From positions 2,688,001-2,752,000 of the forward strand of contig OX638351.1 of assembly GCA_951813565.1 (NCBI GenBank): DNA of 64,000 bases, written 5' to 3'. Source of the DNA: an uncultured Poribacteria bacterium (GTDB lineage Bacteria; Poribacteria; WGA-4E; WGA-3G). Below are positions 21,001-24,000 of this stretch, piece by piece (position 1 is the first letter of the stretch; each line of letters begins with the position of its first letter). The position numbers were made by a program.

Positions 21001-24000
21001 TTGAAACCGCGGTGGAATTTGTCCAAGGCGTTGCTGCAAGCGGCGGCACAGCACTTTTTGTAGGAACAAAACGACAATCTCAAGAAGCTGTTTTAGAGGA
21101 AGCAGTTCGATGTAGCATGTATTATGTCAATCACCGCTGGCTCGGCGGCATGTTGACAAACTTCCAAACAATCCGTCAAAGCATTAGCAGACTTGAAGAA
21201 CTTGACGCTGAAGAAACAAGTGGTGAATTTGAAAAACGTCCGAAAAAAGAGGTTATCCGGCTGATGCGAGAAAAAGGGAAATTGGCGAATAACCTCACTG
21301 GCATCAAAGATATGTCTATCCTCCCCGAAGTCGTTATTGTCACGGATACCCGAAAAGAACACACTGCTATTGCGGAAGCAAATAAACTCGGCATTCCGAT
21401 AATTGCAATAGTAGATACGAACTGTGATCCTGATCCGATTGATTTACCGATCCCAGGCAATGATGATGCTATCCGTTCAATTCGGTTAATTTGTGCTGTT
21501 TTAGCAGAGGCAGTAATTGAGGGCCGTGGCGATGCGTTAGAAGGCGAACAGACTGAAGAAGAAAAAATGCAGTCTGAAGAAAATCAGATTGATAAAGTTG
21601 CTGAAGCTGAACGACATGAGGAGCAAACAGCACAGATTTTAGATGCAGAGCAGCTTTCTGCTGAACCTGAAGCAATTGGTGATGGAGAACAACGGCAACC
21701 GCGTCAACCGCGTCCAAAAAGAAGAATAGGACGACCACGAAGGACCTCATAGTAGTTTCATACTCAGAAATTTTCAGAATGGTAGTTACAAACAACTAAA
21801 TACGAAACTATAGGTCTTTAACTTTAGTGTTCAAAATATGGTGGTTGAAAAACCATTTGAATCTAAACCGGAGGAAATATGGCAATTACAGCAAAAATGG
21901 TCAGTGAACTACGTTCACGTACTGGTGCCGGAATTATGGACTGCAAAAAAGCGTTAGCAGAAACGGATGGAGATATAGACGCTGCGATTAAGAAATTGCG
22001 CGAGCAAGGCTTGCGCGCTTCTGAAATCAAAGGTGGTCGTGCAACTGAAGAAGGGCTTGTTATCTCTTACATCCATCCAGGGAACCGCATTGGGACTTTA
22101 GTTGAATTAAATTGCGAAACCGACTTCGTTGCTCGGACAGAGCAGTTTCAAAAATTAGCAACTGAGATCGCAATGCAAGTCGCCGCTGCAAAACCCCGAT
22201 ATGTCAGCGAAGATGATGTTCCCGCCGGTGAACTTGATGCTGAAAAAGCAATTTTGAAAACGCAGGCACTACAAGAGGGTAAACCTGACCATATTGTTGA
22301 TAAAATTGTTGAAGGACGGCTTTCTAAATTTTACTCGGAAGCGTGTCTACTAAAACAACCGTACATTCGCGATGCCGATAAAACTATTGAGGATCTTGTC
22401 AAAGATGCGATCGCGCAACTCGGTGAAAACATCGTTGTAAAACGTTTTGTGCTCTACGTCCTCGGACAGTAAAACCATTACAGACAAGACACCTTACATC
22501 GGAATCAGCGAAACAGAAAGGAAAAGGGAATTCAGATGCAAGAAGTACTGAAAAATGCTGAATCACGAATGAAGAAAACGGTCGAGTCGACAGCAACAAA
22601 GTTGTCACATGTCCAAACAGGTCGTGCTACTACGGCGTTGTTAGACCAAGTTACGATCAATTACTACGGTAGTAAAACCCCATTAAATCAGGTCGGGACA
22701 ATTACCACACCGGAACCACATCAGCTCGTTATTCAGCCTTGGGATAAAACGTTAATTACAGAAATAGAAAAAGCAATCGCACATTCTGATTTAGGACTTG
22801 CCACAAGCAACGATGGTAGCATTGTTCGAGTCCAAGTGCCAGAATTGACAACCGAAAGACGCGTTGAACTCACGAAATTAGTAAAAAAATTAGCTGAAGA
22901 AGGCAGAGTCGCTATTCGGAATATACGCCGCGATGCAAACGATGCCATTCGCAAACTTGAAGGCGGTGATGCGGGTTCAGGCAGCCGAAGAAGCAAAGGC
23001 AGAGGCGGTGATAAAAAAGGTGGACGCAGTGATGCTGACCCGATCCAGAAGTTAACCGATATCTACGTTAACCAAATTAACGATTTAGCTGATGCAAAAG
23101 AATCTGAACTGTTAGAGAACTAATTATGTTTTGGCGGCGAACTCTGAGCGTTGTTGTACTGGTTCCGCTTATCCTGCTGCTTATCTATTTGGGAAGTTGG
23201 TTTTATCTGCTCCTCATCACCGCCGCGGTTCTAATGATGCAAGTTGAGTACTGTAGGTTAGCGGGTAATTTCGGGGGGAAGTTGAATCCTATTATCCCTA
23301 CGATTTTAACGGTGGCATTCTGTTTGTTCGCGTTTTTCCTACCTACACCGATAGAAAATGCAAACACCTCGCTCTTAATGTTCAGTTTCTTTATCGTTGT
23401 GTTTATCTATGCTTTTGCATCAAGCATATACCGAGGAAAAGTTGCAGGCGAGTTACTTGCCGTCACTTTAAAACTTACAGGTATCCTTACAATTGGATGG
23501 GCATTCGGTTACCACTGTATCTTGTTAAGAAAAGCAGATGCTGTGGGCATGCAGCTTATTTTCTTGCTAATTGGAACAATTTGGTGTAGTGATACTGGTG
23601 CTTATCTAATCGGTAGAGCTGTCGGCAAACATAAACTCAGCACACCAATCAGTCCTCGTAAAACAGTTGAAGGCACTATTGCAGGTTTAGTCGTGGGAAC
23701 CTTGATCAGCATAGGATTTGGTGCGATCTTCTTATCTGAAACCCTTTCATTGGCAAACGCAGCTTTTATAGGATTACTATTGAGTATTTTGGGACAACTT
23801 GGTGATTTGAGCGTATCGCTGATGAAACGCACCGCTGGCGTCAAAGACTCCGGCGATTTCATACCTGGACACGGTGGCTTTCTTGATAGGTGTGATAGCT
23901 TAATTTTTAGCGCACCTATCCTTTATTATTATCTCGCATTAACGGGGACTCTTACATAAGTCCGCTCAAAGCAGATTTTGTTTGCTTGTCTCACCCATCT

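What a model noticed while it worked through the whole genome (the two positions that open the first line are those of the whole stretch)
21879..23123. UMP kinase PyrH, a universal essential bacterial gene, is missing from tsf-frr and from the whole class
pyrH is absent: tsf and frr are 64 bp apart, and no UMP kinase is found in six frames, although de novo pyrimidine genes (pyrB, C, D, E, F, G) are present. The loss is class-wide, so another NMP kinase must make UDP; candidates are Cmk (g00174) or the sole atypical Adk (g04606).
Evidence so far: Gap read directly. TIGR02075: 0 of 22 WGA-4E genomes, several single-contig, vs 3 of 3 sister class; 11 of 14 controls ring. The three AA_kinase proteins are ProB, LysC and ArgB; NMP kinase inventory in call 71. 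Search 81 found no free-living precedent.
(Added by a program. Inside this text positions count along the whole contig: contig position 2,688,001 is position 1 of the stretch shown here. "Call 12" and the like, gene names such as g00115 and contig names such as C1 are that model's own, and its searches are not shown. The text may have been shortened before it was handed on; [...] marks where a part breaks off. The agent that wrote the report below was given it as the finding of a first reader that could run no searches.)

Follow-up and report, generated by a model that had tools for sequence, protein, structure and literature searches.

The report
Poribacteria twice lost UMP kinase
Two branches of Poribacteria, marine bacteria that still make their own pyrimidines, have lost the normally essential enzyme that turns UMP into UDP, and their CMP kinase, which changed the same base-reading residue in both branches, is the most likely stand-in.

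Summary
The loss is real but not class-wide. In this 5.4-Mb single-contig Poribacteria genome tsf and frr are 63 bp apart, no PyrH or remnant exists, and de novo pyrimidine genes are complete. Of 176 phylum genomes, native pyrH is missing from all 159 of this order (one hit is a contaminant) and from 8 of 8 of a second lineage; 6 same-class and 3 sister-class genomes keep it. These are probably two losses. All 9 retained PyrH carry substitutions at residues critical in other UMP kinases (K15E and/or D77H+N140Q). Cmk is the best replacement (about 55%): it is in 174 of 176 genomes and can replace pyrH in E. coli. Its C4-reading residue 36 is Thr in 8 of 8 PyrH keepers and Ser in 146 of 149 non-keepers read, by different codon families in the two lineages. 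Three Thr exceptions exist and no enzyme was assayed. The atypical Adk, a class III PPK2 and an orphan TMPK-fold kinase do not track the loss. No published report was found. An earlier, unchecked scan note reports pyrH missing at this locus in a Patescibacteria group.

The parts
20856..21752 (+). rpsB, ribosomal protein S2, first gene of the conserved operon
   Evidence: TIGR01011 350 bits
21879..22472 (+). tsf, elongation factor Ts (197 aa short form)
   Evidence: TIGR00116 197 bits
22473..22535 (.). 63-bp spacer where pyrH lies in relatives; no remnant; purine-rich ribosome-binding-like stretch before frr
   Evidence: sequence read directly; 728-974 bp with pyrH in the 8 PyrH keepers that have both neighbours on one contig, 14-329 bp in 29 PyrH-less genomes; bridged by contigs of 4 runs
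22536..23123 (+). frr, ribosome recycling factor
   Evidence: TIGR00496 192 bits
23126..23959 (+). cdsA, directly after frr; the ancestral uppS is also gone from this slot (a different uppS lies at contig 5061505-5062428)
23978..25255 (+). dxr
   Evidence: TIGR00243 491 bits
25318..27000 (+). rseP, end of the conserved operon
   Evidence: TIGR00054 343 bits

Best explanation
pyrH was deleted cleanly from the rpsB-tsf-pyrH-frr operon, probably twice (this order, families f1-f4; and family f8). The cells still make UMP de novo and need UDP. The most likely supplier is the ordinary bacterial CMP kinase (Cmk; G000 contig 176845-177576, minus strand), working as a CMP/UMP kinase. SHOWN: the absence, its range, the intact de novo pathway, Cmk in 174 of 176 genomes, the Thr36Ser pattern, and the substitutions in retained PyrH. 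FROM PAPERS: Cmk alone can carry E. coli without pyrH; residue 36 contacts the C4 substituent that differs between CMP and UMP. INFERRED: (1) PyrH was already weakened or repurposed at the base of the phylum, so flux shifted to Cmk before the gene was lost; (2) Thr36Ser loosened discrimination against uracil and was favoured in each loss; (3) PPK2 and other kinases add to the flux only in some genomes.
For: Cmk is the only single orthologous NMP kinase tested that is present throughout both PyrH-less lineages and has a known UMP activity: 174 of 176 genomes, missing only from 76% and 84% complete bins. Tmk is also in all 18 high-quality genomes of a 30-genome panel, but shows no shared change; Gmk was not surveyed. 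In E. coli the whole pyrH locus could be deleted when cmk was on a plasmid, with growth even uninduced (PMC3386227, passages); T. maritima Cmk accepts UMP (PMC10248530, passages). Residue 36 (E. coli numbering; Ser38 in G000) is Thr in 8 of 8 PyrH keepers with a cmk, Ser in 8 of 8 f8 genomes and Ser in 138 of 141 genomes read in this order. The Ser codons are AGY in f8 and TCN in this order, each one base from Thr ACN but two bases from each other, which points to two origins. It is the only such column among 186 variable Cmk columns; the same test gives 0 in EF-Ts, 0 in RRF, 0 in Tmk, 1 in Adk and 1 well-filled column in RpoC. This residue binds the base (PMC3603445), and a Thr-type Cmk was reported to have no UMP activity (PMC9791819, passages). 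Retained PyrH: K15E in 8 of 9, D77H+N140Q in 3 of 9, every copy has one or both; the equivalent S. aureus mutants K13A, D75 and N138A are impaired or dead (PMC12847342 section 3.8). Two losses: EF-Ts rejects one PyrH-less clade (AU p 0.026), and PyrH-keeping G017 shares a replaced uppS with this order but not with f8 (100/100).
Against: No enzyme was assayed. Three PyrH-less genomes (G069, G092, G093; two are single contigs) have Thr36, so Ser36 is not required. R110, D132 and R188, which favour cytosine, are unchanged in all 48 genomic Cmk aligned. Thr/Ser is a conservative change, there are only two events, and the column was found after looking. Recalled, not from a call: B. subtilis Cmk has Thr here and a higher UMP/CMP ratio than E. 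coli Cmk. The codon profile gives no sign of raised cmk expression (13th percentile, but the index is nearly flat and frr scores 39th). RpoC and a three-gene concatenate do not reject a single loss (AU p 0.335 and 0.504). K15E is fixed in 70 of 73 clade sequences while the other catalytic residues stay conserved, so retained PyrH may be active or have another job; family f5 has K15E beside a textbook Cmk.
Confidence: 0.55

Rival explanations
1. Patchwork: no single heir. Basal UMP activity of Cmk is topped up, differently in each genome, by class III PPK2 (UMP + polyphosphate), an orphan TMPK-fold kinase, or a second Cmk-like (PF13189) protein. Slow growth keeps demand low.
For: G000 has a class III PPK2 (TIGR03709 388 bits, cut-off 247); some class III enzymes phosphorylate UMP (PMC12864786, passages). 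PPK2 of any class is in 7 of 8 f8 and most of this order's panel. The orphan (contig 4924339-4925097) folds like TMPK/dNK kinases (pLDDT 90.5; Foldseek E 3e-7, TM about 0.56) and has an orthologue in 135 of 159 genomes of the order. A phage-type dNMP kinase replaced tmk in P. putida (PMC10653934, abstract).
Against: Single-contig G033 lacks PPK2 and the orphan orthologue; G069 has only a truncated PPK2; the orphan is absent from 8 of 8 f8 and from single-contig G070, G101, G033-G035; PF13189 proteins are in 2 of 5 genomes tested, not in G000. Universal NMP use was found in only 1 of 4 class III enzymes tested in PMC12864786.
Confidence: 0.18
2. The adenylate-kinase-family enzyme makes UDP, as eukaryotic UMP/CMP kinases do: the short-LID Adk in this order, the long-LID Adk in f8.
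For: In this order the spc-operon adk is gone (secY is followed by rpsM within 200 bp) and the sole Adk is a short-LID protein (95-107 bits against 141-209 for the long form) with Ser for the adenine-reading Thr and GIPR for GFPR. It scores below every NCBIfam Adk cut-off and 89 bits on the UMP-CMP kinase model (cut-off 208).
Against: All 8 f8 genomes lack pyrH but have only the ordinary long-LID Adk, with the Thr, GFPR and Gln of AMP-specific enzymes in the 7 aligned, so the swap does not track the loss. The short form is a widespread Verrucomicrobiota/Chlamydiota/Planctomycetota subfamily; recalled, not tested: these phyla keep pyrH. It keeps the adenine-reading Gln and is no closer to UMP/CMP kinases than to Adks in the PDB.
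Confidence: 0.14
3. An unrecognised, non-homologous UMP kinase exists among the hypothetical proteins.
For: One Pfam-less NMP-kinase-fold protein was found by a motif scan, so others could be missed; other genomes' full proteomes could not be profiled here.
Against: A Walker-A scan of all G000 frames gave no further small NMP-kinase-like protein (motif-limited). In 12 PyrH-less genomes, 37 of 38 PF00696 hits are ArgB, ProB or aspartokinase pieces; the other is a 32-bit stray in one genome.
Confidence: 0.08
4. UDP or UTP is imported from the host or surroundings through an NTT-like transporter.
For: G000 has a 440-aa membrane protein with a weak TLC match (contig 3601724-3603046); this strain occurs in sponge metagenomes.
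Against: It scores 32 bits against a cut-off of 387 on the NTP/NDP exchanger model, is absent from G014, and the de novo pathway is kept: PyrD and PyrF in 5 of 5 genomes tested.
Confidence: 0.04
5. Assembly or binning artefact.
For: All genomes are metagenome-assembled; one genome of the order (G123) does carry a pyrH.
Against: 44 single-contig genomes of the order lack it; tsf and frr are adjacent in 29 of 30 panel genomes; the G123 copy lies on a 2.5-kb contig whose EF-Ts and RRF are 52% and 38% identical to the window's (82-93% and 73-88% in the rest of the family) and sit on long branches outside the class.
Confidence: 0.01

Closest known systems
E. coli pyrH deletion carried by cmk on a plasmid (Bergmiller et al. 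2012, PMC3386227)
   Same: Same gene lost, same proposed substitute, no homology between the two enzymes; E. coli Cmk also has Ser36.
   Different: There it is a laboratory construct needing extra cmk copies; here it is a natural state fixed in 167 species-level genomes with one chromosomal cmk, and the substitution is inferred, not assayed.
Eukaryotic UMP/CMP kinase (Adk family, TIGR01359)
   Same: One enzyme would serve both CMP and UMP.
   Different: The proposed enzyme is a bacterial-type Cmk (TIGR00017 250 bits), a different subfamily; no G000 protein reaches the TIGR01359 cut-off.
Replacement of tmk by a phage-type dNMP kinase in Pseudomonas putida KT2440 (PMC10653934)
   Same: An essential NMP kinase gene is lost and another NMP kinase covers.
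   Different: That substitute came in by transfer into the same locus in one strain; here the locus is empty and the best candidate is a resident gene.
Patescibacteria and other reduced, host-dependent bacteria (bioRxiv 10.64898/2026.06.21.733656; scan note e1-824773)
   Different: Those cells mostly lack de novo nucleotide synthesis; these Poribacteria have 3-9 Mb genomes and keep it. The preprint passages read do not report loss of pyrH.

Membership tests
Bacterial UMP kinase PyrH (TIGR02075), in G000 | Full-length amino-acid-kinase-fold protein over the family cut-off, usually between tsf and frr | tested here: not met
   best 12.5 bits in G000; no remnant; 63-bp spacer
PyrH, retained poribacterial copies | Position between tsf and frr and full-length match | tested here: met
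   9 native copies, 8 over cut-off, all after tsf
PyrH, retained poribacterial copies | Conserved Lys15, Asp77, Asn140 (E. coli numbers) | tested here: not met
   K15E in 8 of 9, D77H+N140Q in 3 of 9; K in 47 of 47 next-nearest homologues, E in 70 of 73 clade members
PyrH, retained poribacterial copies | ATP-dependent UMP phosphorylation | not testable with these tools
   needs an assay
Bacterial (d)CMP kinase Cmk (TIGR00017) | Family score and P-loop with NMP-binding insert | tested here: met
   249.5 bits, cut-off 135.6; PDB Cmk matches to E 4e-50
Bacterial (d)CMP kinase Cmk (TIGR00017) | Base-binding Ser/Thr36, Arg110, Asp132, Arg188 | tested here: met
   R110, D132, R188 invariant in 48 genomic sequences; position 36 Ser or Thr
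Bacterial (d)CMP kinase Cmk (TIGR00017) | Strong preference for CMP/dCMP over UMP | not testable with these tools
   the point at issue; needs kinetics
Eukaryotic-type UMP/CMP kinase (TIGR01359), for the sole Adk | Family cut-off | tested here: not met
   89 bits against 207.6
Eukaryotic-type UMP/CMP kinase (TIGR01359), for the sole Adk | Short LID | tested here: met
   about 27 residues shorter than the long-LID Adks, no Cys4 motif; shared with many true Adks
Eukaryotic-type UMP/CMP kinase (TIGR01359), for the sole Adk | Ala and Asn in place of the adenine-reading Thr and Gln (recalled rule) | tested here: not met
   Ser and Gln in the 12 short-LID sequences aligned
Class III PPK2 (TIGR03709) | Family cut-off | tested here: met
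   387.7 bits against 247.2
NTP/NDP exchanger (TIGR00769) | Family cut-off over the full length | tested here: not met
   31.6 bits against 387.2, 68 residues matched

The most novel reading that the evidence does not exclude
The whole phylum Poribacteria runs without a working canonical UMP kinase. PyrH became a nucleotide-binding pseudokinase or changed substrate at the base of the phylum (K15E, later D77H+N140Q, basic allosteric residues lost), Cmk took over as a dual CMP/UMP kinase, and the gene was then dropped twice, each time with an independent Thr36Ser in the Cmk base pocket. This would be a natural, repeated evolution of a eukaryote-like single pyrimidine NMP kinase from the bacterial Cmk scaffold.
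Probability: 0.25. Interest if true: 0.8.

Novelty: new variant of a known kind. Interest (0 to 1): 0.62.

Why it matters
PyrH is treated as essential and near-universal in bacteria and is pursued as a drug target. A large clade of big-genome, pyrimidine-prototrophic bacteria living without it shows that the Cmk bypass seen in the laboratory, or something like it, can be a stable natural state. It tests the prediction of Bergmiller et al. that compensable essential genes are the ones lost. It gives a small, cheap experiment on how Cmk tells CMP from UMP, and a series of natural PyrH variants (intact motif outside the phylum, K15E, D77H+N140Q, deleted) that may record the steps of a gene's retirement. 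Practically, a missing pyrH should not be read as incompleteness in these genomes, and a pyrH in a bin of this order flags contamination (G123).

Tried and rejected
Relocated, split or decayed pyrH in G000: none. Class-wide loss: rejected. G123 as a native keeper: rejected. Loss of uppS: rejected, it is present elsewhere in 34 of 37 panel genomes. Loss of Ndk: rejected, 5 of 5. Adk swap as cause: does not track the loss. Orphan TMPK-fold protein as the essential heir: missing from several single-contig genomes. Cmk D35N, S101x and G134T as markers of the loss: rejected; N35 and T134 occur in keepers, T134 also in 14 of 37 outside homologues. Tmk: no shared derived column, but 7 of 27 sequences were dropped by my motif filter. 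Species trees: EF-Ts and RRF separate the two PyrH-less groups, RpoC and the concatenate are unresolved; G123 and incomplete rows were left out of the AU tests. Codon index for cmk: uninformative. Motif regexes missed Ndk, PPK2, UppS, PyrD and PyrE that profile searches then found (against 43-45, 78, 88), so regex misses were not used as absence. The scan of genome contigs with the Adk returned only Poribacteria (33 loci), so co-occurrence of this Adk type with pyrH in other phyla could not be tested. The wide VIA fold search was not run. Literature searches (listings only, open-access library) found no report of pyrH loss in Poribacteria or in a prototrophic bacterium; the primary Cmk mutagenesis and B. 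subtilis papers were not in the listings. No supplements were read.

Full report
Observation. The window holds rpsB (20856-21752), tsf (21879-22472), frr (22536-23123), cdsA, dxr and rseP on the plus strand. Only 63 bases lie between tsf and frr. The genome G000 is one contig of 5,426,982 bases without N, 95% complete, with 49 tRNA genes called; close relatives are titled Candidatus Poribacteria. TIGR02075 finds no PyrH in six frames while ringing in 14 of 14 controls. The three amino-acid-kinase proteins are ArgB, ProB and LysC. tblastn with 10 PyrH proteins and an unfiltered HMM of 130 homologues show no remnant. PyrB, PyrC, PyrF, PyrG, PyrD, PyrE and PyrR and Ndk are present, so the cell makes UMP and must pass through UDP. 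Contigs from 4 of 4 runs laid, from 4 studies, bridge the junction.

Range. Among all 176 genomes of the phylum, 10 have a full-length PyrH. Three are the sister class. Six are in the same class but other orders (G004-G008, G017), with pyrH after tsf, so the loss is not class-wide. The tenth, G123, is a 2.5-kb contig whose EF-Ts and RRF are 52% and 38% identical to the window's and sit on long branches outside the class: a contaminant. Native pyrH is therefore missing from all 159 genomes of this order, 44 of them single contigs, and from 8 of 8 genomes of family f8, which are 61-95% complete. In a 30-genome panel, 29 have tsf and frr within 14-329 bp, including all 8 f8. In 12 PyrH-less genomes, 37 of 38 PF00696 hits are ArgB, ProB or aspartokinase; one weak stray in G012 has no match to PyrH.

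One loss or two. EF-Ts puts PyrH-keeping G017 as sister of this order (99/96) and rejects a single PyrH-less clade (AU p 0.026). G017 and this order also share a replaced uppS that f8 lacks (100/100). RpoC and a three-gene concatenate neither support nor reject one clade (p 0.335 and 0.504). Two losses are more likely, not proven.

The retained PyrH is odd. In E. coli numbering, Lys15 is Glu in 8 of 9 native copies, and Asp77 and Asn140 are His and Gln in G007, G008 and G017; every copy has at least one of these. Among database homologues, 70 of 73 clade members have Glu15 and 47 of 47 next-nearest have Lys; several basic residues in the allosteric region are also lost in the clade (their mapping to the allosteric site is my inference). 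Lys15 bridges the two nucleotides in the T. thermophilus structure (PMC12404492, passages), and the S. aureus mutants K13A, D75 and N138A are impaired or inactive (PMC12847342, section 3.8). But R62, T138, T145, D146, D174 and D201 stay conserved, so the protein is under selection for something. It may be a weak kinase, use another substrate, or be a pseudokinase.

Candidates in G000: Cmk, one Adk-family protein, Tmk, Gmk, a uridine-kinase-like protein, a class III PPK2 and an orphan P-loop protein. Adk: all 17 genomes outside this order have a long-LID Adk; this order has a short-LID form instead (155 of 159 genomes have an ADK hit; G030 and G061 carry an extra long-LID hit on separate contigs, not checked further), and adk is gone from behind secY. 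The short form belongs to a Verrucomicrobiota/Chlamydiota/Planctomycetota subfamily. Because f8 lost pyrH with an ordinary Adk, the swap cannot explain both losses. PPK2: class III in G000, a class that can use UMP in some members (PMC12864786, passages), but PPK2 is absent from single-contig G033 and from G009, G018, G029, and truncated in G069. The orphan has a TMPK/dNK-like fold and is conserved, but is found in 135 of 159 genomes of the order and 0 of 8 f8. A weakly NTT-like transporter falls far below its family cut-off and is absent from G014.

Cmk is in 174 of 176 genomes. Overexpressed cmk suppresses pyrH lethality (PMC3603445, passages) and allowed deletion of the entire pyrH locus in E. 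coli, with growth even without inducer (PMC3386227, passages). T. maritima Cmk accepts UMP (PMC10248530, passages). Aligning 48 genomic Cmk sequences showed R110, D132 and R188 invariant, and one column that separated keepers from both PyrH-less groups: residue 36. It is Thr in 8 of 8 keepers that have a cmk in the assembly, in 82 of the 83 closest database hits to the G003 enzyme and in 36 of the next 37. A pattern scan of the class, with fetched regions, extends this: Ser in 8 of 8 f8, and Ser in 138 of 141 genomes read in this order; 18 genomes of the order were not read. The codons differ, AGY in f8 and TCN in this order, so the two Ser states most likely arose separately from Thr. The same column test gives 0 in EF-Ts, RRF and Tmk, and 1 each in Adk and RpoC. 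This residue hydrogen-bonds the base; a Bifidobacterium Cmk with Thr showed no UMP activity, which its authors tie to this Ser/Thr and the Asp (PMC9791819, passages); E. coli Cmk has Ser. Against: G069, G092 and G093 lack pyrH and have Thr; there are only two events; the column was found after looking; by recall, B. subtilis Cmk has Thr and handles UMP relatively well; and codon usage shows no raised cmk expression.

Mechanism. Most likely (0.55) Cmk supplies UDP, with Thr36Ser a helpful but not necessary adjustment, after PyrH had already been weakened. Rivals: a patchwork of promiscuous kinases (0.18), the Adk-family enzyme (0.14), an unknown enzyme (0.08), import (0.04), artefact (0.01). 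Absence, range and sequence patterns are shown; every statement on activity is inferred.

Comparison and novelty. This works like the laboratory pyrH/cmk replacement and like the replacement of tmk in P. putida (PMC10653934, abstract): loss of an essential gene covered by a non-homologous enzyme, a known kind of event. Searches found no report of pyrH loss in Poribacteria or in a prototroph; the library lacks most subscription journals. A preprint on Patescibacteria discusses Cmk and Adk in nucleotide salvage without reporting pyrH loss in the passages read, and an unchecked scan note reports pyrH missing at tsf-frr in one such group; those cells mostly lack de novo synthesis. Verdict: real, narrower than stated but repeated, a new variant of a known kind, directly testable with a handful of purified enzymes. 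Interest 0.62.

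Noticed in passing
G000 contig 113524-114876 (secY) and 5417702-5418442 (L023:5706-6371, minus): The spc-operon long-LID adk is gone in this order and replaced by a short-LID Adk of a Verrucomicrobiota/Chlamydiota/Planctomycetota subfamily: a second displacement of an essential NMP kinase.
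   Followed up: partly
window 23123-23126; G000 contig 5061505-5062428 (L265): uppS has left the frr-cdsA slot; in this order and in G017 it is replaced by a distant cis-prenyltransferase type (long branch, 100/100), while f8 keeps the native type elsewhere.
   Followed up: partly
L008-L016 (PyrH of G001-G008, G017): All retained poribacterial PyrH carry K15E and/or D77H+N140Q while other active-site residues are conserved; possible pseudokinase or changed substrate.
   Followed up: partly
G000 contig 4924339-4925097, minus (L024:5343-6056): Pfam-less 238-aa protein with a TMPK/dNK-like kinase fold, 61-93% identical across 135 of 159 genomes of the order, with up to 4 paralogues in some; also in Gemmatimonadota and Chloroflexota clusters; substrate unknown.
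   Followed up: partly
window about 22950-23050 (frr): RRF has a Gly/Arg/Lys-rich insertion of about 10 residues replacing the usual start of the last helix; the frr match is about 555 bp in f1, f2 and some f3 against 525 bp elsewhere.
   Followed up: no
L215-L219 (rpoC of f1); G003:C261, G007:C164, G017:C244: RpoC open frames in family f1 are 1884-2116 aa against about 1400-1450 in f2 and f3; three PyrH-keeping genomes also have a second RpoC-like frame of 2224-2367 aa.
   Followed up: no
L239 (G093) and L240 (G104): cmk lies in one open frame with the upstream gene (533 and 554 aa), probably a fusion with the prephenate-dehydrogenase-like neighbour.
   Followed up: no
L007 (G123:C574): A foreign tsf-pyrH-frr contig in a species-representative bin; it is that bin's only frr.
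   Followed up: yes
G000 contig 3601724-3603046, minus (L273): Stand-alone 440-aa membrane protein with a weak TLC/NTT match, beside branched-chain amino acid ABC transporter genes.
   Followed up: partly
L341 (G012:C5:199314-199799): Distant amino-acid-kinase-family protein (32 bits) in one f8 genome, with no tblastn match to PyrH, ArgB, ProB or LysC.
   Followed up: partly
window 19472-20566, minus: 364-aa ORF upstream of rpsB with no NCBIfam match.
   Followed up: no
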